NCBI GenBank assembly: GCA_000442015.1
Contig: KE561117.1
Location: 186,001 to 217,887 of the forward strand
Reading direction: 5' to 3'
Length of the DNA: 31,887 nt
DNA from: Rozella allomycis CSF55
Taxonomy: Eukaryota
Shown here one piece after another: positions 1,385 through 31,887 of the stretch; position 1 is the stretch's first letter; the number at the start of each line of letters is the position of its first letter. The notes below the pieces were generated by a model. It ran no database searches. It worked only from the letters and a program-made list of their open reading frames with translations, and was not told where the DNA came from. A program made the translations under genes and the position numbers.

Positions 1385-2469
1385 ATGACAAAATCTTTGA
1401 ATGGTGCTCTTTTTGGAATGTGCAATCCACTTTTGGACCTTATCGCAGATGTAAAGTCAGATATTTTAAAAAAGTAACATTTTCACCCTCTCTATAAGCA
1501 GATACAACCTAAAAGACAATGATCAAATTCTTGCTGATGAAACTCATAAAGGCTTATTTGAAGATCTTTTAAATCAGTACAAGGTCCAATATGTTGCAGG
1601 AGGTGCTGGCCAAAATTCAATGAGAGTTGCTCAATGGCTTTTGCCGCCCAATTCAACTGTGTATCTTGGTTGTGTAGGAAACGATGAATTCTCAAGGCAA
1701 TTAAAACAAAGTGCATCAAATGATGGTCTTCATGTTGAATATATGATAGATTCAAGCACTCCAACAGGATGCTGTGCTGTTCTAGTGCAAGGAAAATATC
1801 GGTAAGAGAAAAGGCCCAATAACATGTAGATCATTAGTTGCTAATCTTGCTGCTGCAAATAATTACAAAATGGAGCATTTATTGGCAGAAAAATGCCAAA
1901 CTTTGATGGAAAGTGCGCAATGCTTTTATATCACAGGGTTCTTCATAACAGTGTCTCCTGATTCAATTATCCATGTTGCAAGTCACGCTGCTCAGAAAAA
2001 CAAACCATTTTGCTTTAACTTGTCAGCTCCCTTTTTGAGTCAATTTTTTAATGAGTCTTTATTAAAAACTTTGCCATACGTCGATGTCTTGTTTGGAAAT
2101 GAAACAGAAGCTTTGGCGTTTGCAGAAGCTAATGCATTTAATACTAAAGATATGAAAGAAATAGCAATAAAGTTGTCCGCATTACCCAAAGTAAATCAAA
2201 ATAGAAATAGAATCGTTGTGATTACTCAGGGCGCTGATTGCGTTATTGTCGCTACTAAAGGGAATATTCAAGAATTTTCAGTTGCGCCAATTCCGTCTGA
2301 TGAAATTGTTGACACTAATGGTGCCGGTGATGCTTTCGTTGGAGGATTTTTAAGTCAATTCATTCTTGGAAATCCAATAGAAGATTGCATTCAAAAAGGA
2401 ATCTATGCTGCCAGTGTGATTATTCGTTCTTCTGGATGTACCTTTCCAAAGTCCAATGATAAACAATAA
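1385..2469 (+). CDS. ADK: Adenosine kinase (PfkB family), 3 exons
   Basis: Motifs GMCNPLLD, AGGAGQNSMRVAQW, FGNETEA and DTNGAGDAFVGGFL. Introns at 1474-1501 and 1802-1829. Confidence 0.96.
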
Positions 2470-2478
2470 ACTGATCAT

Positions 2479-3009
2479 TTATTTTTCATTTTTTGATATA
2501 AAAGGCGGAAACATGGTCAACTTTACATTAATCCCTTCTCTGGATATTCTTCTTTCGCATGACATGATATAGAAATCTCTAAGATCGTGAGCATCAACAT
2601 CATCCATCGATTTTGGCATTTTGTTCCAATCAATATTCGCTCTTTCCAATGTAGCTATAATACCTCCAATTCCTACTTTATACATTTTCGAATCTTCGGA
2701 TAATAATCTGCCTTTGATATTGTCACCAGGTTTCAATCCAAGTAGAAATCGAACAGTTTCATTCTGTCTTACTTGTTTGTTCACATTTTCAAATGGTGTA
2801 TATCTGAATTCTGTATCGATATTTCCTGTAAGAATAACGTGGTTCTGGGCCAATTCATCAATTGGCAATTCTCGTTTGAGCCCGAAATTTTTGCCTTCAA
2901 ACATGGCGTTTCTAGAGTTCCTAATCAGCAAATTCTTATCTTTAACATAATTACAAACAAAGGCCGAACGACTGAATAACTGGCGAAAGGATTGATATCT
3001 TTTGTCCAT
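2479..3009 (-). CDS. Hypothetical 176-aa protein, intronless orphan
   Basis: ATG-initiated ORF filling the space up to the ADK stop; no recognisable domain. Its C-terminus weakly resembles the repeat unit of the neighbouring ORF. Confidence 0.6.
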   Translation of the reverse strand: MDKRYQSFRQLFSRSAFVCNYVKDKNLLIRNSRNAMFEGKNFGLKRELPIDELAQNHVILTGNIDTEFRYTPFENVNKQVRQNETVRFLLGLKPGDNIKGRLLSEDSKMYKVGIGGIIATLERANIDWNKMPKSMDDVDAHDLRDFYIMSCERRISREGINVKLTMFPPFISKNEK

Positions 3010-3128: not shown

Positions 3129-3938
3129 CTAGAGAGCTTGGATTTTTTTTCTTAAAAGACTTAGATCTATCGTTTCCTGTGCAACAATTGGCCTCTCCTT
3201 TTTAACACCATTTTTATAATTATCGCTGACGCTTGGATCAGCCAGGTCTTTATCCATCTTTTTAAGATGCCAACTATTGTATTCTATTCTCTTTGTCATC
3301 TCCTCTAAGTATGGCTTAATATCGTCTGCTTTAAGTCTTAAAGTAAGAGCGGAATTGTAAACGTTTCGGGCCCTTTCAACATTCCCCTCGTAATCGTGCT
3401 TGTCCAAAGGTTTGGATTCCCTCTCAATAAAATTCTTGTATTCGTTTCTCAAATCCGCTTGATCTTTGGGTGTTAGCTCATTGAAAGATTTTGCCATGTA
3501 TCTATTCTTAATAGTTGTCATAACGTCACCCTTTCTTCTATAACTGGGAATCAAATCCAATTTTGCATAATCAGTTGGTAAACGTTTAAGCTTGTTTTGA
3601 GTGTCGTATAATTTAAGCAATGTGTGCAGGACATACTCGCGCTGTGCTTTATACTCGGTCGCCAGTCTTCGAAACTCAAAATCTGACATACCCTTCAATT
3701 TCCTAGGTTCGGGAGGGTACATTTTCAAATGATCTCTTTTGTCAATAATTGTTTGAATTTGATCAATTATAGGCTGAACATCTGATTTTATCATTCTCAA
3801 TTTGCGGGCTGATGAATAGATATTTGCAATTTCTTCCACTTTTCCAACACTAATTTCATCAATTTTGTAATTATTTAAAAACTTCTTATAATCACGGAAA
3901 ACCTCAATTTTGTCATCAGGACTTAACCGGTCAGGGGA
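3129..3938 (-). CDS. C-terminal part of an orphan helical protein with an internal 150-aa repeat; 5' end lost at the N join
   Basis: 810 nt of open frame from N3939 to the TAG at 3129. Two alignable units: LSPDD..YKKFL..GKVE..NIYSSARKLR..DVQP..HLKM and LTPKD..YKNFI..GNVE..NVYNSALTLR..DIKP..HLKKM. Confidence 0.7.
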   Translation of the reverse strand, partial: SPDRLSPDDKIEVFRDYKKFLNNYKIDEISVGKVEEIANIYSSARKLRMIKSDVQPIIDQIQTIIDKRDHLKMYPPEPRKLKGMSDFEFRRLATEYKAQREYVLHTLLKLYDTQNKLKRLPTDYAKLDLIPSYRRKGDVMTTIKNRYMAKSFNELTPKDQADLRNEYKNFIERESKPLDKHDYEGNVERARNVYNSALTLRLKADDIKPYLEEMTKRIEYNSWHLKKMDKDLADPSVSDNYKNGVKKERPIVAQETIDLSLLRKKIQAL

Positions 3939-3939
3939 N

Positions 3940-4085
3940 CGTAATTCCAAGGGTTCAATATTGTCTGCAATTCTCTCGATAATTTCAACTGGTAAGTCAA
4001 AGAGACTCAAAGAGCAGGACCAGGAAAGCCAAACGGAGATCATAAGGAGCAACTCAATGCACTTGTTGGATGTCAACATTTCCAT
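3940..4085 (-). CDS. Signal peptide + F-box-like protein, copy 1 (N-terminus only, cut by the N join)
   Basis: MLTSNKCIELLLMISVWLSWSCS (basic n-region, hydrophobic core, S-x-S) followed by LSLFDLPVEIIERIADNIEPLEL. Close nucleotide paralogue of 7517-7717. Confidence 0.65.
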
Positions 4086-4507
4086 CGTTTGCGGTGGCTT
4101 GTAACGATTATTTCGTAGATTTCCTAAGTTGATGGACCCTCATTAAAACATGATTGGAATTTTGTAATTAACATGGAAATCTTCCGTAAGATGCTCATGG
4201 TCCCATGGATTAAAACCACCTCGGACCCATCAATTTATTGTGTATGATGATTAAATTCTTAGAAAATCAACCCATGGAAAAGATTAAGAGATGTCAGGAG
4301 CCTCCTATTCAATACTGAATAATTAATGGCTTTATTTCACTCGTGACTCGGATCTAGAAATGGATCCCTAAATTCCAAAAAGCAAAAAATTGCCATTAGG
4401 CAAGTACCGTAAACCATGCATAAATAAGGGCGGCCCAATGTGAAGTTTTGAACTGTCAATTAAGCCTATATCGATAGTCTACTTAGTTTCGTAATTGTAT
4501 AAACATA

Positions 4508-5342: not shown

Positions 5343-6958
5343 TTATTCGTTTTTTGGCATGTTTTTTAATTTACTCATTAAAAACTGATAGAATGAAATG
5401 AATGCCCCGATAGCGCATGAAGCTTGAAAAGTTTCCAAACTGGCAGATCCGAAATAAGAGGTTAAAGCATTATTTGATTTAGCGATGCCAATAAAGTATT
5501 TGGTTACGTGGAATATTACCATGCTAGCCTTTTCCTTTTCTACGTTAAAAAGAATGGACAAGAAGAGTGGAAGAATGTTCAACCAAATCAGCCAAGGGAG
5601 AATACGATTGAACTCGAGCAACATAAAAAGTTCATACGCCTGTATCATTACCGTTATAGCAATGGCATTCAAATAATTCGATTGAAATGATTTTAGCTGC
5701 CTTTTCACTTTTTCGATTCTTGTTTCTGTTTCTAACGTATCAATGTCACAATCATCCGGATGATTATTTTTGTCTTCAATTAAAGACTCCATTTTATTAT
5801 CCTCCTGCTCACATATTTCAGCGCACTTTGAAACACCAGACTCTTTATTTACCTTATCAGTTTCTTTTATGAATTTAGAACAATTATTTCTTTCATTTAA
5901 AGGATCAGTTTTTAGTCTGCGATAAATCTCACGCAACTTACTTGCGACATTGTGTATGGAAGCCAGCTCGCTATCAGATCTTGAAATGATGTGTTCCGCT
6001 GTGTTTATTAATGACTTAATGGTCTTATCCATGCAAAACTGCTGCTTTTCAAGTGCCACATTAAATTCCGGTAATCTGAAAACATGTTTCCACAACGTAA
6101 AATATGCTTCATTCTTGAGCCTTAGAGTTAGATCCAAAAAAACTTCAATCAAATAGTGTTTCAAATAGAACGCTGCTATCAGAAGGAAACTCTCTTTGTG
6201 TTTCAATTCACAAAACATGGAGCATTTCAAAACACCTTCTTCAATGTCTTTTTTAAGATCGATTGAACCATTATTGGGGCTTTTTACAAATAAGAAATGT
6301 TTCAGAGTTTTAGGACTTGTAGCACAAAATTCCGATAGATTAAATCCATAACCTGCGTCTGCAAACAAAATGCAATGACTAAATATTTCCGGCCTGTCAT
6401 AATGAAAAGCGTATTGTGGTATAAGAACACCATTGATAATTCTGCGAACAAAGTCATTGTCTTTGTCTTCGATAATTTCAATATTTTTCCAAGGGACATT
6501 TTGATCCACACAGCTTTTGAATCTTGCAATATCAGATAATGACGGAATTCCATGTTCAACATCTTCATAGTCTGAAAATGCGTGACAAAATGGATCTGGC
6601 TTGTATTTTCCAGCTAACAATTTTGCTTCGTGAAAGAAAAGAGCATCTAAAAAAAGTCTGTTTATAAAACGCTCACCAATAGCCCCAAAAAGTATATTAT
6701 CTGCGTCGTATTTCAAGATATATTCTATTAAATTGCCTTCCGAGAAAATAAATATGTCAGCGACAATTTCAAAGACAGTTGCGCTATTCGCCTTAAATAT
6801 TGATTTTAACATGTCCATTTTGAACGAATCTTTGATATACGTTACTATTTTTTGGAAGGCGGCATCAGGATTATCAACCAATTCGTCAAATTCTTCTTTG
6901 TTGTCCAAAAGTTTGGGAAGGATACTGTATTCTAGAATTTCCTTGACATGTGTGCTTC
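5343..6958 (-). CDS. Large intronless orphan protein with C-terminal hydrophobic helices; 5' end lost at the N join
   Basis: About 1.6 kb of uninterrupted frame: helical body, acidic linker, then hydrophobic segments (YLNAIAITVMIQAYELFMLL, ILPWLIWLNILPLFLSILF, AIGAFISFYQFLM). Confidence 0.75.
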
Positions 6959-6959
6959 N

Positions 6960-7377
6960 GCGCCTCTCCATGAGCACTTCGCAAAGCATTAGGTGCTTGT
7001 TGTCGAGTTGCATGTTCATAGATAGGCGGCGATCTACGATCTATGGTTGTGTATCTAGGAAGTGTGTCACCTTGTCTTTGTACTTGTTGTCGGGTAGCCT
7101 GTTCATAGGAAGGTAGTGATCCTTGGTCTTGGGCTCTGGAAGTGTACCTGGAAGAGGCAGAACGATGGCGTCCTTGTTGGCCTTGTCTTGAGGGGTTTGA
7201 AGACCGAGTGTTACTTCCTGATGAAGTATTCTTCTTTTTTCCTTTGAAAAAGTTCTTGAACGATTTCCAAGGTGATATTCGAGACCGATTGATTGCTTGA
7301 GAATTGACCGTTCCAGCGGGGGAAGTTGCTATCAATGATAGAAATAGAGGTAAAAGTAATGTCGAAAGTAGTTTCAT
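6960..7377 (-). CDS. Secreted disordered Q/R/S-rich protein with three PY (L/PPxY) motifs; 3' end lost at the N join
   Basis: Classic signal peptide MKLLSTLLLPLFLSLIATSP, basic patch KGKKK, and LPSY (88-91), LPRY (106-109), PPIY (117-120). Confidence 0.75.
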
Positions 7378-7390
7378 GACGACCCCTTAN

Positions 7391-7655
7391 AATTATTGAT
7401 TTTCCATTTCAGTTCGATCAAAGGCACAGATCGCTCAAAATATTTTATTAAGGAGGGTAATATCGCATCCTTCTGATACCAAGCATGTGCCGTTTTGCAT
7501 GAACAAACCATTTGCTGTAATTCCAAGGGTTCAATATTGTCTGTAATTCTCTCGATAATCTCAACTGGTAAATCAAAGAGACTCAAAGAGCAGGACCATG
7601 CAAACCAAACGGAGATCATAAGGAACAACTCAATACACTTGTTAGATGTAAACAT
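7391..7655 (-). CDS. Signal peptide + F-box-like protein, copy 2 (N-terminus only, cut by the N join)
   Basis: MFTSNKCIELFLMISVWFAWSCS followed by LSLFDLPVEIIERITDNIEPLELQQMVCSCKTAHAW, fitting the F-box consensus L.dLP.Ei...I...L....l......CK...W. Confidence 0.7.
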
Positions 7656-7729
7656 TTGCAACGTTTCTTCGGTGGCTTGTGACGGATTTTTCGTAGATTT
7701 CCTAAGTTGAAGGACCCCATCATAAGATT

Positions 7730-8354
7730 ATCGGACGGGGAGTTTACGACCCGGACTTCAGAAACGATTATTGGCATGTTGAGTTAACACCATTTTCACC
7801 TCGAATACACACTCACTTTAAGGGATTTACATCGCTGACCAGGGGGGTTGTCGAGTGGTGTGTGTGTGTGTGTATGTGTAGGTGGCGGAAGTTTTGGAAG
7901 GTGCATGTTGGATTGCTCATTAATATGGCACATTTGTGTCTATTTATAAAAAAATTAAATTGAAATAATAAATTGTTGTTTTATTTTCTTTATTAGCGTC
8001 TTAGAGCCATAAGATTTCCTTGTTACACTTAGTTTTGAGTCCCCCTAACCCCTTGGAGTAGCAAATCTTTAAAAGTATCCAATCGATTAAACAATTATAT
8101 TAATTGAAAGATAAAATTTATAGACATTTATTTATTAGAACAAGATAAAGGGATTTGGGATTCGCGGGAGGAAAACGGTAAATGAAGGTCATGAGCGATG
8201 GAAGAAAGCGGTAAAATGAAATACATCTCTACTTAATTTTAGAAGAAATCACAATTTCCATGGCATCTTCAAACTAATGTCAAAAAATGATAATGATAGC
8301 AAACAGTTGTTTTGTGCGAGAAATTTATTCTTAATTATAAACTCCCCGTCCGAT
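7730..8354. mobile_element. Non-autonomous DNA transposon (MITE-like), 625 bp with perfect 17-bp terminal inverted repeats
   Basis: ATCGGACGGGGAGTTTA (7730-7746) is the exact reverse complement of TAAACTCCCCGTCCGAT (8338-8354). No internal ORF is listed. A second copy of the left end sits at 31851-31887. Confidence 0.85.
7858..7880. repeat. (GT)n microsatellite inside the TIR element
   Basis: gtgtgtgtgtgtgtgtatgtgta read directly. Confidence 0.85.
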
Positions 8355-12518: not shown

Positions 12519-15474
12519 ATGCAAGAAAAGGACAAGTCGTATGACTATTGTCCACCTTTTGCTAACGGCAATAGGTTTAACCAAAGCTATTCAAACAAGA
12601 ACGAGTATTCTGGACGGCCTTATAGTGGAGGGTATAACTCTAGCGGCGGAGGACAGGGTCAAAGTGGGTATTATGATAGTGATACTGCGCGTTCTAAATA
12701 TTCTAGTGAATATTACAGAAGAGATAGCCGGCCGTACCCCGTGCAGAGGTATGATAAGGGGTATTCACGTGGGTATGAGGACGGATACGCAAGAGATTAT
12801 CGTGGTCATAAGAGTGAAGAGAGTTCAGGCTATGATTATGGAAAGAGGCAGCCGTATTATGAAGATGGATACAAGTACCAGAGCAGGCCACGGCCATACT
12901 ATCCTAGCGAGAGGATTAGCGATAGACCGAATGAGAGGGGCTATTATGATTATACCAAGAAGTATAAATATGATGAGCGATACAAGTATGATAATAGGTT
13001 TGAAGATAAAAGCGAAAGGTAAACACTAAATATTTTTTGAAATGTAGGAAATCTGTGGAGCCATATTATAAGCCGTATGATAGAGGATACGAGAAGCCGT
13101 ATTATGAAAGGTCATACGATAAACCATATGATAAGCCATATGAAAGACCGTATGAAAAGCAATATGATAAGCCATATGCAAGATCATTTGAAAATACATA
13201 TGACAGTGGTGAAAAGCCGTTTGTTAAAAAGTATAAATATGATAATTTCAAGAGCTACGAATATAAGAATGATGACAGGGGGATAAATTATTATAAGAAA
13301 CCATATTATAAAGAAAAGAGTTATGAGAATTATGAAAAACCTGCCTATAGATATGAAAATGATGAAAGAGAGTATGATGAAAGAGATGAAGAACAGTATC
13401 AAGGGGACAATGAAAAGATGAATGATGATAATGGAATAAAGGAGGAGTCTAAAATGGAAGAAGGCGAGTGTTTATCGTCAGAACCAAAAGATGATGATTT
13501 AAAAGAAGATTTGAAAGACGATATGAAAGAAGATTTGAAAGAGCAAGAGGAAAGGATGGAAGTAAATTTTGATAAAGGGAAAGAAAAAGAAGAAGAAGAA
13601 AGTATTGGTAAGAGCGGAGAGAAGATTGAAATTGTCGACAAGGAAAAGATTCAAAGTTCAGAAGAGATATTGAAGAGGATGGATGAAATTGATGTGCAGG
13701 TTTGTGAGTTGGAAAAGAGAATACAAATATTGAAAGGGGAAATGAATGATTTTGATTCAAATTTTTTGGTTGAAAGTATTTTGAATTCAAATAAGAAAAT
13801 ATCTAAAAGTATAAAAGAAGAAAATGAGAAAGAGTTCCCAACGTTGATAAATTTTGAAGAATATTCGCAGCCTGTAATTGAGAAATTTCAGAATCAAACT
13901 AAAGATCTTTTGATGAGAGTTATAAAGCGAAGAAAGCAACAAACATTTGAACTGAAGAAACAATTGAAAGTGAAATATAAAAATATTCAAAATGAATTTC
14001 AATCTAAACTTTTAGAAAATTCTAGTTTGTTTAATACTTCATATGATAAACTTATGGGAATTAAAAATGGATTTATTCATTCAAAGATTAAAGTTGATAA
14101 TTTTATATCACAGAATCAATCTTCTAAAGATATTCAATTAATGTTTGTTAGAACAATTGCTAAAATACCAAACATGTTATTAGATGGATGTGAAAAAGCT
14201 TTCCCCTTTATATCTGAAAATGGACTTGTTTCTGATCCAATGAATGTTTATCAACAATCTAAATATATAAACCCCTGGTCTGATGATGAAAAAGATAAAT
14301 TTGTTTCTGCGTTTCTTGAGTATCCTAAAAACTTTTCTAAAATTGCATCTTTCATTGAAAATAAATCTTCATCTGATTGTGTTAAATTTTATTATCTCAA
14401 TAAAAAATCTTTGGATCTGAAAAAATTATCAAAAAAGAAATTTCGTAAGATTGGACCAGGGTCTTCAAGAGAATTAAAAGATTTAACTTTGGCTAATCTA
14501 CATTGGGAGCAAAGAGAACATCGAGAAAAATCAAAAGAAAAAGAAATAAAAACTCCAATTAAATCAAATTCCAAAGAAATAAATACCAAAGATACTCCAA
14601 GTGAACCAAGTACACCAATAGAGAATAATACAAACACAGCATCTAGATGGACTGTAATGGAAAAAGTTAAAGCGATTGAAGGAATTCGATTTCATGGGAA
14701 AAATTTTCAAAAGATATCTGAATACGTTGGAACTAAAACTGAACAACAATGTAGATCTTTTTATCAAAATTACAAAAAGAAATTAGATTTAGATACAATA
14801 ATTAAAAACAATGAAAAAATTATTCCAAAAGTTGAAACTCCTTCTGACTTATCTTTTGAAAAAGTAAATGAAAGAAAACAAATCCCTTCAACTTCAATTC
14901 CAAGGCCTTTGACTCAAACTTCTTTTGTTCCTTCGTCTGCTTCTTATCTTCAACAACCTTTGGGCTATCCAATGCCTTTTCTTTATTATCCAAACTCTTT
15001 TCAATTTAGATTCCCTCCAATGAGACCCCCTTTCTTTGAATCAAACTTTAATCGTCCTATTCAACAACAAACAAGAAGACACAGGTAATGTAAATGTAGT
15101 TTAAATATTCTAGTATTACTTCAGATATTGTTTCAAATTCATTCAACAAAGAAAGAAGATCTAGCGGTGGCTCCATCGATCATTCCAGAATTCTTGATGA
15201 TTCAAAATTACAACTTAAAGACGATAAAGTGAAATTAAAACTTCAAGATGAATTTAAAAAGGAAGAAACAGTTTTAACTCACAATGATTCAAAGTTACAG
15301 TTAATAGATCAACAACCCATGGTATCATTAGACCCTCATAATGCCATTGACACAAATATCAACAATCAGTCAGAAACTTTTATCCCTCAAGAACAATCAA
15401 CTGTACCAGAAAATATTCAAACATCTGAAACATCTGATGAAACAAGCAAGAATGATGAAACTCAAAATTTATAA
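12519..15474 (+). CDS. Dual SANT-domain corepressor protein (Snt1/NCoR-like), 3 exons
   Basis: SANT1 PWSDDEKDKFVSAFLEYPKNFSKIASFIENKSSSDCVKFYYLNKK and SANT2 SRWTVMEK..HGKNFQKISEYVGTKTEQQCRSFY. Preceded by AKIPNML..ENGLVSDP and a coiled coil EEILKRMDEIDVQVCELE. Introns at 13019-13047 and 15085-15113. Confidence 0.88.
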
Positions 15475-18746: not shown

Positions 18747-19277
18747 ATGGTGCCAAGGAAATCGGTTAATCTAAAGCTCGACATAAATTTATCAACATTT
18801 CCAGCCTTTACAACCCGAATTCCTAGCCCATATTCTGCAATTAAAACCAGTCTCGTCGAAATACTTCCTGGTGTATATCTCGGCAACTCATTCGTTGCCT
18901 CGAAAGGATCAATCTTAAAGCATTTGGAAATAACAAATATTATTAATGTGGCAAATGAAATCCCCTGTTTTTTCCTAAACGATCATATCTCCCACTTTGA
19001 CTACCTTCACCTTCCTTGGGACCATGCATCAAAAATACAGAATGATATCAATGATATCAATAAGTTTATCGAAAAAGCGATTTCTGAAAAAGGAAATATT
19101 TTGATTCATTGTGACCTTGGCAAAAGCAGAAGCGCCTGTGCAATGATTGGCTTCATAATGCACAATAGAGCATTGCCTTTCGATGAGGCATACAAGTTCG
19201 TTAAAGAAAAGGCACCTCATATCAGCCCAAATTTTGAATTGTTATATCAACTAATAGATTTTGAAACGAACCAATAA
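18747..19277 (+). CDS. Dual-specificity protein phosphatase
   Basis: EILPGVYLGN, IINVA, catalytic IHCDLGKSRS (HCX5R), and ISPNFELLYQL. Confidence 0.92.
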   Translation: MVPRKSVNLKLDINLSTFPAFTTRIPSPYSAIKTSLVEILPGVYLGNSFVASKGSILKHLEITNIINVANEIPCFFLNDHISHFDYLHLPWDHASKIQNDINDINKFIEKAISEKGNILIHCDLGKSRSACAMIGFIMHNRALPFDEAYKFVKEKAPHISPNFELLYQLIDFETNQ

Positions 19278-20832: not shown

Positions 20833-23800
20833 TTAATCTGCCCTGAAAATATTCAACAAGACGTCTTCGAGAGAACTTCTTCCTAATGAAAAATCCAAAA
20901 TGACGTTCTTTTCCTTCAAAGACATAAAGCGATCGACGATGACACCTAGGGGCAAGGAGAAAGACAATGAAACTTTTGCATATCCATTAATAATTTGCTG
21001 CAAAGAATATGAAGCTTTTAAATCGCCACGTAAAACGTATTCCAAAATGGGATCTAGTATTTTCTCATTACAGTTTGATAGTTGCAAAGTGGCAATGTAG
21101 CCATCGGCCATTGAGATTGATAATTCATGTTCAGTACCACAACTCTTAAGAGTTCCTTTGGTCATGACACCTATGCGATCGCAATTTGATGTTTCGCTGA
21201 TGTAGTGAGTTGTCATTACAGTTGTTCTTTCTTGACCTAGAGCACGGACAGTCTTCCACATTTTGGATCTGGCTAAAGGATCTAAACCGGCAGAAGATTC
21301 ATCAAGCATGACAAGGGACTTTGGTAACATAATGGCAATGATGGTGCTAACTTTTCTTTTTGTGCCGCCACTCAATTGACCACATTTGTAATACTTGAAG
21401 TTTAAGATGCCCATGGATTCCAATAACGTGTCAATGTAGTCACATGCTTCTTTATTTGTATAACCGTTCATGTATAAAAACAAGTACAAATGATCATAAA
21501 TTGACATTGAAGGAATTAGAAGTAAATCAAACTGAGGACAGACACCCATCATATTGATAGCTTTGAACTTATTAGCTGTAACGTCTATGCCATCGACATG
21601 AATAGCACCTGCAGTGGGAACCAACCTTGATGTTAACATGTTTAGTGTAGTTGTCTTTCCACAACCATTGGGACCCAACAGAGCAAAAAATTCATTCTTT
21701 TTAATTTCAAGATTTAAATTTTTAACGACCTTTCTTTTTCCAAACCTTTTTGAAACACCGCTGAATTTAGCGCAAATTTTATGATCAATTAATCTCAACT
21801 TTGAATTTCTATAAAAGACGTGTTTGAATTCAACAATCAAAATAAAATACAACAGACAACCACAGACTATGTAATTTATCATATCACTCCCTTGTATTAA
21901 ATATTTATCATCATTAACCAAAACCATGGGTGATGTTAATGGAAATTTACTCATAACTAACGTTACCAATTTATAAATCTTTGGATCGATAACTTTTGTC
22001 ATTGTTAAAGCCATTAATCCCATCCAACAAAAGAATCCCAAGTTTCTCGCCAGTGAAAGTATTAGGTTGGCCCCTGATTCATTCATAACAATTCCCAAGA
22101 AAAATGAAAGAACAAACGCTAAAACAAAGAAAGATATTAAATAAGAAGAAATATCGTAAGCTATTTTTGAAACAGATATGAAATAAGCAGGGAGAACAAC
22201 AGGGAGCATTAATATTGCTGTCATTATTATATGAACAAACCAAAACGAAACAAATGAGACACCACAAGAAAGCAACAGAAATTGATACTTAATTTTAGCT
22301 TCTTTAACTCTTCTTCCAAAGTACGCGATCAATTCACTAAACAATTGAAGAATGAAATATGGAACAGCTCCATCAAACAATGAACCTAAAATTTCAAGAG
22401 GAGACTCATTTTTAGAATACAAGATTATATTATTTGTAGATCCCTTTATTCCTTTGGACTCTAACAAACTTTCAACGATATAGAATTGTGCAAGTGCCAT
22501 ACCAGGCTGCACACTAACTGAATATGTATTACCTGCTTTATAAAGTCCTCCAAACTTATTTTCTTGTTTCTTTTCTTCGTATGGGATAAACATTGGATAA
22601 TGCAATAAGGATTCAACGTTTGTTTCATATCTAGATCCATGCCAAATCATAGCATTGTACAGATCTTTTCCAAGCGTGTAATTTGCTTTGACTGTAAATT
22701 CATTCTGCAATTTTGCATTCGCGATACTTGGTTTAGGCAAGTTCGAAATAGCCACAATTAAAAGTAAAGTTGGCAGTAATCCTCCTACGTATTCATAAAC
22801 ATGTGTGACAAATCGATACAATTCAAATTTTAAAAGAAGCCATGTTGTTTTAAAGAAATTATTTTTTCTGCAACTTTTGATATGTTCACCCAACAGCCCT
22901 TCAATATTCTTATCTTCGCCATTAGATTTATTGTTTGAAAAAATGTAATCCAATCCATTTTCTTTTATAATAAAAGATTTTATCATTGGTTTAAGTTCTT
23001 CTTCTTGTTCGAATTCTGATATGCTTTCTAAAATCCCTTCTTCAAAAATAAACTCTACGAAATTTCCACTCTCTTTGCATTTATATCCCACTGCCCCCTT
23101 GTTAAAAAACCAAGCTAAAAATGACTCTTCATCAAAATCATCTGTTTTCTCAATTGACAATGAATACCCAGTTCGAAATAGATTCTTCAAATATCTTGAA
23201 GTTCCAATACACGTCACTTTTCCTTGAGTCATCATAGCTTTTCTATCACATATTATATCAGCTTCATCCATAAAATGTGTGCACATAAGAATTGATCTCC
23301 CTTGCTTTCTTTTTTGCAAAAAATTCCAAATCACTCTTCTATTATCAGGATCAACTCCACTAGACATTTCATCCAAAACAACCAATTCAGGATTGCTCAC
23401 AAAAGCAATTGCTATGCAAAGTTTTCTTTTTTGACCACCTGACAGATGCTGTGCAAATTTATCCAACATATCGCCCATTCTCAAATCTTCAACTATCCCT
23501 TCAATAATATCTTTCAGCTCACTATTCTTCACGCCTCTAATTTTACCGAAATAATATAAATGTTCTCCAACAGTAAGATCTTGGAAAAGAATATCTTGCT
23601 GCTGGCAAATCCCAATTCGCTGTGATATTGCTCCTCGATTTTTACTCTTTGAAGAATCAACCCCGAAAACTTTTATATGCCCAGCTGTAGGAGAAAGAAT
23701 CCCAGTAATAATATTAATTAGTGTACTTTTCCCAGCACCGTTAAATCCTATCAGTCCAAATATTTCATTTTTCGCAAACTCTAAACTCACATCATTCAAA

Positions 23801-25209
23801 GCTTTAATCTTGGCACCAGGATAAATCTTTGTCACATTTTTCACAGAAACTTTGTCCTCTAATGGAACAGATGATATTTCACTTTTCTCCTCATGTACAT
23901 TTACTTCCTCCTTTTCAACTTTGCTGATACTTGAAAACAATGCAAGAATTGGATAATAGAAAGGTCTTTTATGGTCCTGACTAACATCCAGCCAATCGAA
24001 ATAAAATGCAATAATATAATAGGCGAAAGTAATCAGCATGCTTACAAAATAGATGTTATAAAGAGATGGATACCCATTTGGAATAGATAACTTTGATAAA
24101 CCTGTGCTTTCCAAAGGAGTAACTTCAAGAACCTTTAAATAATATTTAAATCCAAAAGCTGGTATCATACATGCTACATATATATACTCAACAGACAAAT
24201 CAAAAGGACTTGCAACAATCAAACCAAACCAACTGACAGATAAAATGAATGAAAGAAACCCTGATTTTCTTGGACTTGTTGTTGCATTAGCTATCAATAA
24301 AAAGACTCCAAGCGTAGAGAAGATAGTGTTCAATGCGAAAAGTACAAGAGGCAAAAGTTCACATTTCAATCGAGCATACATTATAGCAACTCCAACACCC
24401 ATGTAAATTGAGCAAAGAATAAACGGAATAAGAAAAATAGATAAAGTATACGCAGATTTGTTAAGCCCTGATCGCAGTAAGGTGAATTTCATGCCATTTG
24501 ATCGATATTGTCTCATTGTGTCAAGGAGGATGCTTCCTATTGAAGTAAATGAAATCGGATAAAGCCACATATCGGCAAAACTAAAAGATAAAACTGAACC
24601 GGTGAATGATGTGGCAAAGTTTGGATCGCCCATGTTGGTCGCAAACGACGGAGGCTGGTCATTTTCTTTATCATTTAAAAGCCCAGTATCCCAAAAGTAC
24701 TTGATCTTTGCGGCAGCCAGATATGAAGAAGTAACAAATTTGCTTCCAAAAGAATCATCAAATTTTCCACTTTTAATAAGATCTACATTGGTTTTCACAA
24801 CACCTTGCGGCATGATTATATCATAAGATAGAAGTTTTTCGTCTCTACTATACGAAGTTATGTTAATGAAAAATGAAGTATCGCTTTCTCTTAATCTTTT
24901 AAATTCGTTGGATGATTTTTGAGAGTAACCAAACTTGCTAGCAAATTTATCAACAAATGCTTTGTCGCTTGCCACCAAGTTACCAAAGGAATAATCATAG
25001 AAAATATTAAATTTTAAAGTTTTGAAATTCAGATCTGGTGGTTGGGCACTCAGTTTCATTTTTTCGAGAAGACTTTCATCAGTAAACACAAAAGCTAAAG
25101 CTCCCATTATAAACATAGAGAAAATAGCCCCCCAAAACGAAAAGCTTCTTCTCTTGAGGAGAAACTGCAACCTAAAGAACGTGTAGGTTTGAAATAGAAA
25201 CGAAAACAT
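20833..25209 (-). CDS. ABCA-subfamily full-length ABC transporter (TMD-NBD x2), intronless
   Basis: 1458-aa ORF with Walker A GFNGAGKST and GPNGCGKTT, signatures LSGGQKRKL and LSGGTKRKV, and ABCA-typical THFMDEADIICDR and GVCPQFD. Confidence 0.93.
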   Translation of the reverse strand: MFSFLFQTYTFFRLQFLLKRRSFSFWGAIFSMFIMGALAFVFTDESLLEKMKLSAQPPDLNFKTLKFNIFYDYSFGNLVASDKAFVDKFASKFGYSQKSSNEFKRLRESDTSFFINITSYSRDEKLLSYDIIMPQGVVKTNVDLIKSGKFDDSFGSKFVTSSYLAAAKIKYFWDTGLLNDKENDQPPSFATNMGDPNFATSFTGSVLSFSFADMWLYPISFTSIGSILLDTMRQYRSNGMKFTLLRSGLNKSAYTLSIFLIPFILCSIYMGVGVAIMYARLKCELLPLVLFALNTIFSTLGVFLLIANATTSPRKSGFLSFILSVSWFGLIVASPFDLSVEYIYVACMIPAFGFKYYLKVLEVTPLESTGLSKLSIPNGYPSLYNIYFVSMLITFAYYIIAFYFDWLDVSQDHKRPFYYPILALFSSISKVEKEEVNVHEEKSEISSVPLEDKVSVKNVTKIYPGAKIKALNDVSLEFAKNEIFGLIGFNGAGKSTLINIITGILSPTAGHIKVFGVDSSKSKNRGAISQRIGICQQQDILFQDLTVGEHLYYFGKIRGVKNSELKDIIEGIVEDLRMGDMLDKFAQHLSGGQKRKLCIAIAFVSNPELVVLDEMSSGVDPDNRRVIWNFLQKRKQGRSILMCTHFMDEADIICDRKAMMTQGKVTCIGTSRYLKNLFRTGYSLSIEKTDDFDEESFLAWFFNKGAVGYKCKESGNFVEFIFEEGILESISEFEQEEELKPMIKSFIIKENGLDYIFSNNKSNGEDKNIEGLLGEHIKSCRKNNFFKTTWLLLKFELYRFVTHVYEYVGGLLPTLLLIVAISNLPKPSIANAKLQNEFTVKANYTLGKDLYNAMIWHGSRYETNVESLLHYPMFIPYEEKKQENKFGGLYKAGNTYSVSVQPGMALAQFYIVESLLESKGIKGSTNNIILYSKNESPLEILGSLFDGAVPYFILQLFSELIAYFGRRVKEAKIKYQFLLLSCGVSFVSFWFVHIIMTAILMLPVVLPAYFISVSKIAYDISSYLISFFVLAFVLSFFLGIVMNESGANLILSLARNLGFFCWMGLMALTMTKVIDPKIYKLVTLVMSKFPLTSPMVLVNDDKYLIQGSDMINYIVCGCLLYFILIVEFKHVFYRNSKLRLIDHKICAKFSGVSKRFGKRKVVKNLNLEIKKNEFFALLGPNGCGKTTTLNMLTSRLVPTAGAIHVDGIDVTANKFKAINMMGVCPQFDLLLIPSMSIYDHLYLFLYMNGYTNKEACDYIDTLLESMGILNFKYYKCGQLSGGTKRKVSTIIAIMLPKSLVMLDESSAGLDPLARSKMWKTVRALGQERTTVMTTHYISETSNCDRIGVMTKGTLKSCGTEHELSISMADGYIATLQLSNCNEKILDPILEYVLRGDLKASYSLQQIINGYAKVSLSFSLPLGVIVDRFMSLKEKNVILDFSLGRSSLEDVLLNIFRAD

Positions 25210-31850: not shown

Positions 31851-31887
31851 ATTATCGGACGGGGAGTTTACGACCCGGACTTCAGAA
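31851..31887. mobile_element. Left end of a second copy of the TIR element, running off the window end
   Basis: 37 nt identical to 7727-7763 (attatcggacggggagtttacgacccggacttcagaa). Confidence 0.85.

What the first reader, a model, noticed from the sequence alone, without database searches (positions are those of the whole stretch)
6960..7377. Secreted disordered protein with repeated PY motifs: possible Rsp5/Nedd4 adaptor mimic
After a textbook signal peptide the protein is low-complexity but carries LPSYEQATRQQ, LPRY and PPIYEHATRQQ; the first and third form a duplicated unit 29 residues apart. [LP]PxYE.A is the typical context of WW-binding motifs in Rsp5 adaptors and viral late domains. 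A basic aromatic segment (PWKSFKNFFKGKKK) could bind membranes or act as an NLS. More repeats may lie in the gap at 6959.
Basis: partly seen in the sequence, partly recalled or inferred. Interest (0 to 1): 0.78.

Follow-up and report, generated by a model that had tools for sequence, protein, structure and literature searches.

The report
Rozella orphan protein with PY-motif array
This is the front third of a protein found only in the fungal endoparasite Rozella: an export signal, then a disordered stretch with four motifs of the kind that ubiquitin ligases of the Nedd4/Rsp5 type bind, then a helical domain, so it may recruit such a ligase, but this rests on motifs alone.

Summary
Window 6960-7377 (minus strand) encodes 139 residues: a signal-peptide-like N-terminus, a basic-aromatic segment, LPSY, LPRY and PPIY. 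The protein is 138/139 identical to a partial Rozella allomycis CSF55 protein (P0002), which continues past the gap with a fourth motif, PPGY. Four [LP]PxY in 154 residues was reached by 0 of 100,000 shuffles.

Three corrections:
- The 430-bp piece between the two Ns is mis-scaffolded or sits between large collapsed gaps. It interrupts an F-box-like gene, and public contigs give it different flanks.
- The protein is not only low-complexity. A 427-aa paralogue (P0007) adds two helical repeats, and that domain is in the window at 3129-3938.
- Motif conservation in the paralogue is partial. It has three canonical PY motifs and two decayed ones, and Tyr plus the following TTIDR is kept at least as well as the prolines. 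The paralogue's gene model has no signal peptide.

No relative exists outside Rozella, and there is no Pfam family or informative fold match.

Best guess (0.3): an exported, host-facing PY array that engages a Nedd4/Rsp5-type ligase. Rivals are an endogenous membrane-anchored adaptor (0.2) and a Tyr-centred repeat with another role (0.25). Binding, export and expression are untested.

The parts
6960..7377 (-). First 139 codons of the PY-array gene. The piece lies between the two Ns at 6959 and 7390. One further base at 6960 begins codon 140.
   Evidence: It is 138/139 identical to P0002 (Rozella allomycis CSF55 hypothetical protein, partial).
7315..7377 (-). Signal-peptide-like N-terminus, residues 1-21: n-region MK, h-region L3-A17, c-region with SPA|G.
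   Evidence: by inspection only. It is the only 19-residue window with KD >= 1.6 in P0002.
7231..7275 (-). Basic-aromatic segment SPWKSFKNFFKGKKK, residues 35-49. It is the best-conserved part of the N-terminal region.
   Evidence: 14/16 identical to P0007 residues 2-17, against 46% identity overall.
7084..7116 (-). Unit A1: LPSYEQATRQQ, residues 88-98 (PY motif 1).
7036..7062 (-). Unit B1: LPRYTTIDR, residues 106-114 (PY motif 2, overlapping a YxxPhi string, YTTI).
6997..7029 (-). Unit A2: PPIYEHATRQQ, residues 117-127 (PY motif 3), a duplicate of A1.
6959..6959 (.). Collapsed assembly gap. The gene continues here with unit B2 (PPGYTTVDR, PY motif 4) and the start of the helical domain.
   Evidence: P0002 residues 140-176. 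X4 loose end at 6960. The X1 contig runs 889 b beyond 6960.
7390..7390 (.). Collapsed assembly gap or false join on the upstream side of the gene.
   Evidence: The X4 loose end behind 7389 is unlike window 7391 onward. The X1 and X4 contigs carry 457 b and 1579 b of other sequence there.
3129..3938 (-). C-terminal domain of this protein family: two all-helical repeats of about 130 aa, followed by the stop codon. It belongs either to this gene or to its paralogue P0007.
   Evidence: 267/269 identical to P0007 residues 159-427. It starts SPDRLSPDD, exactly where P0002 ends (..KIDSPD). The AF2 models are helical.
7391..7661 (-). N-terminal part of the F-box-like gene that the PY piece interrupts. 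Not part of the PY gene.
   Evidence: 88% identical to P0004 residues 1-90. The loose end at 7392 continues as SAKARR, as in P0004.
5343..6956 (-). C-terminal part of the same F-box-like gene. Not part of the PY gene.
   Evidence: 100% identical to P0003. The loose end at 6958 reads LVMNQNILD(R), as in P0003 and P0004.

Best explanation
What is shown: the window holds the 5' part of a Rozella-specific gene. Its product has four regions.
1. A cleavable-type signal peptide.
2. A conserved basic-aromatic segment.
3. A disordered, basic region of about 110 residues, rich in Ser, Arg and Gln. It ends in a twice-repeated two-motif unit, A-B-A-B, giving LPSY, LPRY, PPIY and PPGY.
4. By homology with its paralogue, two helical repeats of about 130 residues.

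What is inferred: the protein enters the secretory pathway and is delivered to the host-parasite interface. There the four closely spaced [LP]PxY motifs act as a multivalent ligand for the WW domains of a Nedd4/Rsp5-family HECT ubiquitin ligase. The host, Allomyces, is itself a fungus and should have such a ligase. The two B units (..P.YTT[IV]) extend the contact or double as YxxPhi sorting signals. The basic-aromatic segment holds the protein on an acidic membrane leaflet. The helical domain would supply the target or scaffold. The outcome would be diversion or recruitment of host ubiquitination and sorting at the parasite surface, in the manner of PPxY late domains.

Export, host exposure and WW binding are inferences from motifs. 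None is shown.
For: - Signal-peptide-like start, and no other hydrophobic segment in P0002. There is none at all in P0007, whose highest 19-residue KD window is 0.55.
- Four [LP]PxY within 56 residues (88-143), reached by 0 of 100,000 shuffles. Three canonical motifs are kept in the paralogue at 46% identity, reached by 2 of 100,000 shuffles.
P, Y, E, A, T, R, Q and Q are kept, with synonymous changes at A and T (small sample).
- The region is disordered in the Atlas and AF2 models, as short linear motifs need.
- P/L-P-x-Y is the stated consensus for Rsp5/Nedd4 WW ligands (PMC7401822, passages).
- Parasites are known to use late-domain motifs on exported proteins: viral PPxY recruits NEDD4, and Toxoplasma GRA14 exposes PTAP and YPxL motifs to host cytosol (PMC10159163, passages).
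- In the related microsporidia, host-exposed proteins are enriched for signal peptides and are clade-specific, fast-evolving and in families (PMC5423893, passages).
- This gene fits that profile. The only matches in 1.84 billion representatives are itself and one spurious repeat protein. Two metagenome scans found no relative.
Against: - In the paralogue, two of five B-type units have lost a proline (PSGH, LSGY) but keep the residues after the Tyr position, and three 'YE' units have no PP. Selection may therefore act on Tyr and its downstream residues rather than on the PY core.
- The paralogue's gene model begins at MSPWKSF with no signal peptide, so the family may not be uniformly exported.
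[quoted passage not shown] A secreted protein may therefore not reach host cytosol without a further step.
- The signal peptide was judged by inspection only.
- There is no binding, localisation or expression evidence.
- The gene is incomplete in both assemblies.
Confidence: 0.3

Rival explanations
1. Endogenous adaptor. The N-terminal hydrophobic segment is not cleaved and anchors the protein in a Rozella membrane with the tail in the parasite's own cytosol. There the PY array recruits Rozella's own Rsp5 to membrane cargo, as the small type-I transmembrane PY-motif adaptors Rcr1/Rcr2, Comm and PRRG4 do. The paralogue without the anchor would be a soluble or peripheral version, held on the membrane by the basic-aromatic segment.
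For: - PY and YxxPhi motifs are cytosolic signals.
- A cluster of basic residues follows the hydrophobic segment (R31, R33, then K38-K49), which fits a cytosolic tail.
- The P0007 model has no signal peptide yet keeps the basic-aromatic segment (14/16) and the PY motifs.
- The Rcr1/Rcr2 class is described as small type-I TM proteins with PY motifs whose Rsp5 binding is lost in PY mutants (PMC7401822, passages).
Against: - The hydrophobic core is only 15 residues, has a proline in the middle, and is followed by a small-residue c-region. That is typical of cleaved signal peptides and short for a stable anchor.
- The first nine residues after the predicted cleavage site are uncharged.
- No Pfam family of any adaptor matches.
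Confidence: 0.2
2. The PY strings are by-products of a Tyr-centred repeat that does something else. It could be a secreted structural or adhesive interface or wall protein, for example with Tyr cross-linking or glycosylated Ser/Thr-rich spacers. It could also carry another linear motif, such as GYTTIDR or YE.A, with a partner that is not a WW domain.
For: - Across the six B-type units of the two paralogues, Tyr (5/6), the next Thr (6/6) and I/V at +3 (6/6) are kept at least as well as the proline at -2 (4/6). This is my count.
- There are two N-x-S/T sequons, and the composition is rich in Ser, Thr, Gln and Arg.
- A signal peptide places the region outside the cytosol, where WW domains are not found.
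Against: - Seven canonical [LP]PxY motifs in the N-terminal regions of the two paralogues are far more than composition predicts.
- The strongly basic tail (27 K+R against 11 D+E) and a long helical C-terminal domain without Cys or wall-anchoring features are not typical of wall proteins.
- No structural-protein family matches.
Confidence: 0.25
3. Not a real gene: a chance open frame on a stray contig.
For: The piece is only 430 bp, is flanked by gaps and is misplaced in the scaffold. No holder listed is on record as RNA.
Against: - The same sequence is present in contigs of 4 runs from 4 studies, some of which may be the source of this assembly.
- It is annotated independently in another assembly.
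- A paralogue aligns in frame at 46% identity, and its N-terminal region is joined to a 269-residue conserved C-terminal domain.
- The repeat units show synonymous-only changes at conserved codons.
Confidence: 0.03

Closest known systems
Small type-I transmembrane PY-motif adaptors of Rsp5/Nedd4 (yeast Rcr1/Rcr2, Drosophila Comm, human PRRG4), as described in PMC7401822 (passages read)
   Same: An N-terminal hydrophobic segment is followed by a tail carrying several P/L-P-x-Y motifs. In that class, PY-dependent binding recruits the ligase to a membrane.
   Different: There is no sequence or Pfam relationship. Here the hydrophobic segment looks like a cleavable signal peptide. The array has four motifs in a duplicated A-B unit. 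A helical domain of about 270 residues follows. The family is confined to Rozella.
Viral PPxY late domains (RSV Gag, Ebola and Marburg VP40), as reviewed in PMC10159163 (passages read)
   Same: A parasite-encoded PPxY sits in an unstructured region and is proposed to recruit a host NEDD4-family ligase.
   Different: This is a cellular parasite and the protein would have to be exported. It has a four-motif array rather than one motif. No budding function is implied. Binding is untested.
Toxoplasma gondii GRA14 (PMC10159163, passages)
   Same: A secretory protein of a eukaryotic intracellular parasite whose short late-domain motifs face host cytosol and recruit host sorting machinery for uptake of host material. 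Rozella also ingests host cytoplasm (PMC6317583, passages).
   Different: GRA14 uses PTAP and YPxL motifs, not PPxY, and is a membrane protein of the vacuole. No transmembrane segment beyond the N-terminus is seen here. There is no homology.
Clade-specific, signal-peptide-bearing host-exposed protein families of microsporidia (PMC5423893, passages)
   Same: A lineage-restricted, fast-diverging, paralogous family in which this member carries a signal peptide, in a relative of microsporidia.
   Different: Only two paralogues were found here, not ten or more. There is no proteomic evidence of host exposure. There is no sequence relationship.

Membership tests
PY-motif ligands/adaptors of Nedd4/Rsp5 (a functional class, not a homologous family) | One or more P/L-P-x-Y motifs in an accessible, unstructured region | tested here: met
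   LPSY 88, LPRY 106, PPIY 117 and PPGY 140. The region is disordered in the models.
PY-motif ligands/adaptors of Nedd4/Rsp5 (a functional class, not a homologous family) | Motifs located in a compartment that contains the ligase (cytosolic face) | tested here: inconclusive
   The signal-peptide-like start argues for a luminal or extracellular location. The paralogue's model lacks it. Host-side topology is unclear (PMC6317583).
PY-motif ligands/adaptors of Nedd4/Rsp5 (a functional class, not a homologous family) | Physical, Tyr-dependent binding to WW domains | not testable with these tools
Known adaptor families by homology (Rcr, Bsd2/Ndfip, arrestin-related, Sna3 and others) | A significant match to the family profile | tested here: not met
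   Pfam-A found 0 families for P0001 and P0002 up to E = 10. For P0007 it found only one sub-threshold match, to an unrelated family.
Cleavable secretory signal peptide | A short basic n-region, a hydrophobic h-region of 7-15 residues, and a polar c-region with small residues at -3/-1 | tested here: met
   MK / L3-A17 (KD 2.37) / SPA|G. This is by inspection; no dedicated predictor and no experiment.
Ubiquitin-like domain (raised by PDB hits to polyubiquitin) | A significant single-domain match and a beta-grasp fold | tested here: not met
   Each stretch scores about 6.5 bits with i-Evalue about 32. The low whole-chain E-value comes from summing four ubiquitin copies. The region is helical in both AF2 models.
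F-box proteins (for the interrupted neighbouring gene only) | A match to the F-box profile above threshold | tested here: inconclusive
   For P0004, PF00646 gives E 0.051 and 14 bits against a cut-off of 20.5. The window's own copy gave no family at E <= 0.01.

The most novel reading that the evidence does not exclude
Rozella exports a multivalent PPxY/LPxY array protein that captures the host fungus's Rsp5 ligase at the parasite surface. This would be a cellular-parasite counterpart of viral PPxY late domains. No paper in the library searched holds both 'Rozella allomycis' and 'PPxY'. The gene lies scaffolded among paralogous F-box-like membrane proteins, which would point to a small ubiquitin-hijacking gene neighbourhood.
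Probability: 0.2. Interest if true: 0.7.

Novelty: new variant of a known kind. Interest (0 to 1): 0.42.

Why it matters
Rozella belongs to the lineage nearest the microsporidia, and almost nothing is known of how it manipulates its host. Because the host is a fungus, its Rsp5 ligase should be close to the well-studied yeast enzyme. A PY-array effector could therefore be tested directly with yeast tools: WW-domain binding, permease trafficking and Y-to-A controls. If it binds, it would extend PPxY mimicry from viruses to a eukaryotic parasite. If it does not, the gene remains one more lineage-specific repeat protein. The report also flags a scaffolding problem that splits this gene and a neighbouring gene in the assembly.

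Tried and rejected
- Homology searches found nothing outside Rozella.
  - The word-indexed search with near lengths found only P0002, 1 of 41 candidates.
  - The search for longer proteins found only P0007, 1 of 1061 candidates.
  - phmmer against 1.84 billion representatives found P0002 and one spurious prokaryotic repeat protein, P0006.
  - Two metagenome scans found 0 relatives among 212 and 339 pattern matches. An alignment query for the first scan was rejected as not conserved enough.
- Pfam gave nothing usable.
- The ESM Atlas gave no usable feature hit, and structural neighbours had TM <= 0.37.
- PDB by sequence gave only additive polyubiquitin hits, which I judge to be chance.
- The AF2 single-sequence models are poor (pLDDT 46.7 and 53.9).
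- The fold search with pdb_via_wide gave only generic helical bundles. The top hit had Z 11.4 to a de novo bundle, under the bar of about 13 that the tool gives for helical models. No fold is assigned.
- No listed holder of the stretch is on record as RNA, so nothing can be said about expression.
- No whole genome is held for this window, so Rozella's own Rsp5 and other family members could not be sought.
- No complex prediction was run, for lack of a WW-domain sequence.
- Tandem Repeats Finder sees no DNA tandem repeat in 6900-7400.
- Earlier-findings look-ups returned nothing.
- I considered Kex2-processed repeat peptides and dropped the idea, because there is only one RR in the array.
- Paper supplements were not consulted.

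Full report
**Organism and setting**

The window is eukaryotic. Long ORFs are sparse, there are no tRNAs, and GC is about 35%. Its genes include an ABC transporter, a Myb protein, a dual-specificity phosphatase, a PfkB kinase and a weak mitochondrial-ribosome Mrp51 match. The protein of the finding is 138/139 identical to 'hypothetical protein ROZALSC1DRAFT_23571, partial [Rozella allomycis CSF55]' (P0002). The window therefore comes from Rozella allomycis or a near-identical strain. Rozella is an unwalled endoparasite of the water mould Allomyces that ingests host cytoplasm (PMC6317583, passages).

**The observation**

Window 6960-7377 on the minus strand encodes 139 residues. An in-frame TAA lies 12 nt upstream of the ATG.

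- Residues 1-21 have the layout of a cleavable signal peptide: MK, a 15-residue hydrophobic core with mean KD 2.37, then SPA|G. This is the only hydrophobic segment in the known 176 residues.
- SPWKSFKNFFKGKKK lies at residues 35-49.
- LPSY, LPRY and PPIY lie at 88, 106 and 117.
- P0002 runs on beyond the N at 6959 with PPGYTTVDRSPNS... The loose end of a public contig at 6960 gives the same residues when I translate it by hand.
- The array is a duplicated two-motif unit: A1 (LPSYEQATRQQ), B1 (LPRYTTIDR), A2 (PPIYEHATRQQ), B2 (PPGYTTVDR). A1 and A2 are also similar as DNA, 78.6% over 42 nt.
- Between A1 and A2, the amino-acid changes within the unit fall on the first position (L/P) and the two x positions. 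There are synonymous-only changes at the A and T codons.
- Four [LP]PxY motifs were reached in 0 of 100,000 shuffles. The test overstates independence, because the units are duplicates.

**The scaffold**

The 430-bp piece lies between single Ns at 6959 and 7390. On the minus strand the scaffold reads in this order:

1. N-terminal part of an F-box-like protein (7661-7391).
2. The PY piece (7377-6960).
3. The rest of that F-box-like protein (6956-5343).
4. An intergenic stretch.
5. The N-terminal part of a second F-box-like paralogue (4085-3940).
6. An N at 3939.
7. A helical domain (3938-3129) that belongs to the PY family.

Evidence on how these pieces join:

- The paralogue P0004 runs straight from the F-box-like N-terminal part into the STHVKEILEYS.. 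part, through 34 residues.
- One contig of a paralogous copy joins 6958 to 7392 with 100 letters between them.
- The window's own copy continues as ..SAKARR after 7392 and as ..LVMNQNILD(R) before 6956. Both are my hand translations of loose ends, and both fit that 34-residue link.
- Public contigs that contain the PY piece carry other sequence on both sides: 889 b and 457 b in X1, and 627 b and 1579 b in X4.

The literal position of the PY piece inside the F-box-like gene is therefore not real. Either a small contig was dropped into the wrong gap, or the Ns stand for large gaps in a tandem array of near-identical paralogues. The window's immediate flanks say nothing about the PY gene.

**The rest of the protein**

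A search for longer relatives found one paralogue, P0007 (427 aa, Rozella; 46% identity over 162 aligned positions).

- Its N-terminal 143 residues are disordered.
- They carry the basic-aromatic segment (14/16 identical), PPSY, PPGY and LPGY, and two decayed units, PSGH and LSGY.
- Residues 159-427 form two all-helical repeats of about 130 residues. Repeat 1 matches repeat 2 at 31% identity, E 2.5e-7. Both AF2 models are helical but of low confidence.
- Window 3129-3938 encodes this domain, 267/269 identical to P0007. It starts at SPD, exactly where P0002 breaks off.

Whether that piece is the C-terminus of the finding's gene or of P0007 cannot be settled here. The other assembly joins it to the P0007 N-terminal region. 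Both assemblies break at the shared segment of about 37 residues around DVSTTI.ERYKIDSPD. Either way, the finding's protein almost certainly continues into such a helical domain. It is not just a low-complexity peptide.

**What it resembles**

Nothing matches by homology.

- No Pfam family matches.
- No relative was found in 1.84 billion representative proteins apart from itself; the one other hit is spurious.
- Two metagenome scans found none.
- The ESM Atlas gave no usable neighbour.
- The fold search gave only generic helical bundles.
- Hits to polyubiquitin in the PDB are additive noise: 6.5 bits per copy, in a region that is helical in the models.

**Mechanism**

The only functional handles are short motifs.

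- P/L-P-x-Y is the stated ligand of Rsp5/Nedd4 WW domains (PMC7401822, passages).
- Viruses use PPxY to recruit NEDD4. Toxoplasma GRA14 exposes other late-domain motifs to host cytosol to drive uptake of host material (PMC10159163, passages).
- Host-exposed proteins of microsporidia are typically clade-specific, fast-evolving, paralogous and signal-peptide-bearing (PMC5423893, passages).

On this basis my best single guess (0.3) is an exported, host-facing PY array that engages a Nedd4/Rsp5-type ligase. The basic-aromatic segment would serve as a membrane-binding element and the helical repeats as the scaffold.

Against this reading:

- Across the paralogues, Tyr and the following residues are conserved at least as well as the prolines.
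- The P0007 model has no signal peptide.
- Rozella is described as lying in a compartment bounded by in-pushed host membrane.
- Nothing on binding, export or expression could be tested.

The rivals are:

- An endogenous, N-terminally anchored adaptor of the Rcr1/Comm type (0.2).
- A Tyr-centred repeat with a structural or other role (0.25).
- A non-gene (0.03).

**Novelty and verdict**

No paper in the searchable library holds both 'Rozella allomycis' and 'PPxY'. Searches on Rozella effectors and secretomes listed no study of this gene (listings only). The gene is fragmentary and mis-scaffolded. It is a lineage-specific protein with a PY array: a new variant of a known kind of ligand, and a moderately interesting hypothesis that can be tested readily with yeast tools.

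Noticed in passing
window 3939, 6959, 7390 (and 11446): Single Ns stand for collapsed gaps. Across three of them the scaffold interleaves the halves of two different genes: F-box-like N-terminal part, PY N-terminal part, F-box-like C-terminal part, then a second F-box-like N-terminal part and the PY-family C-terminal domain. This points to a mis-placed small contig or to a tandem array of near-identical paralogues.
   Followed up: yes
window 7391-7661 with 5343-6956, and 3940-4085 (minus strand): A Rozella-specific family of F-box-like proteins. Members have a hydrophobic N-terminus, an LPVEIIERI.. motif (Pfam F-box only E 0.051) and C-terminal hydrophobic segments. The paralogue P0004 is 63% identical overall. 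The N-terminal parts and upstream DNA of the two window copies are 88% identical at nucleotide level (3940-4200 against 7517-7735).
   Followed up: partly
window 7726-7878 and 31851-31887: A very high-copy dispersed repeat. Word depth of public contigs is about 45,000-263,000, against about 223 on the flanks, in run X1. A 37-nt identical copy lies at the window's end. A (GT)n microsatellite follows at about 7860.
   Followed up: partly
P0007 residues 210-270 (window about 3600-3785, minus strand): Weak resemblance to ubiquitin residues 15-75 in a PDB sequence search. The whole-chain E of 5e-5 arises only because polyubiquitin repeats are summed. Each stretch scores 6.5 bits, and the region is helical in the models. 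I judge it to be chance.
   Followed up: yes
P0007 residues 279-305 (window about 3495-3575, minus strand): The second helical repeat is also preceded by PY-like strings (LPTDY, IPSY) and by DV.TTI..RY. The PxY-plus-helical-domain arrangement may therefore itself be the ancestral repeated unit.
   Followed up: no
window 20833-25209 (-), 13418-15088 (+), 18747-19277 (+), 1870-2469 (+), 2479-3009 (-): Ordinary neighbouring genes: a full-size ABC transporter with two ABC_tran domains, a Myb DNA-binding protein, a dual-specificity phosphatase, a PfkB-family kinase fragment and a weak Mrp51-like match.
   Followed up: no
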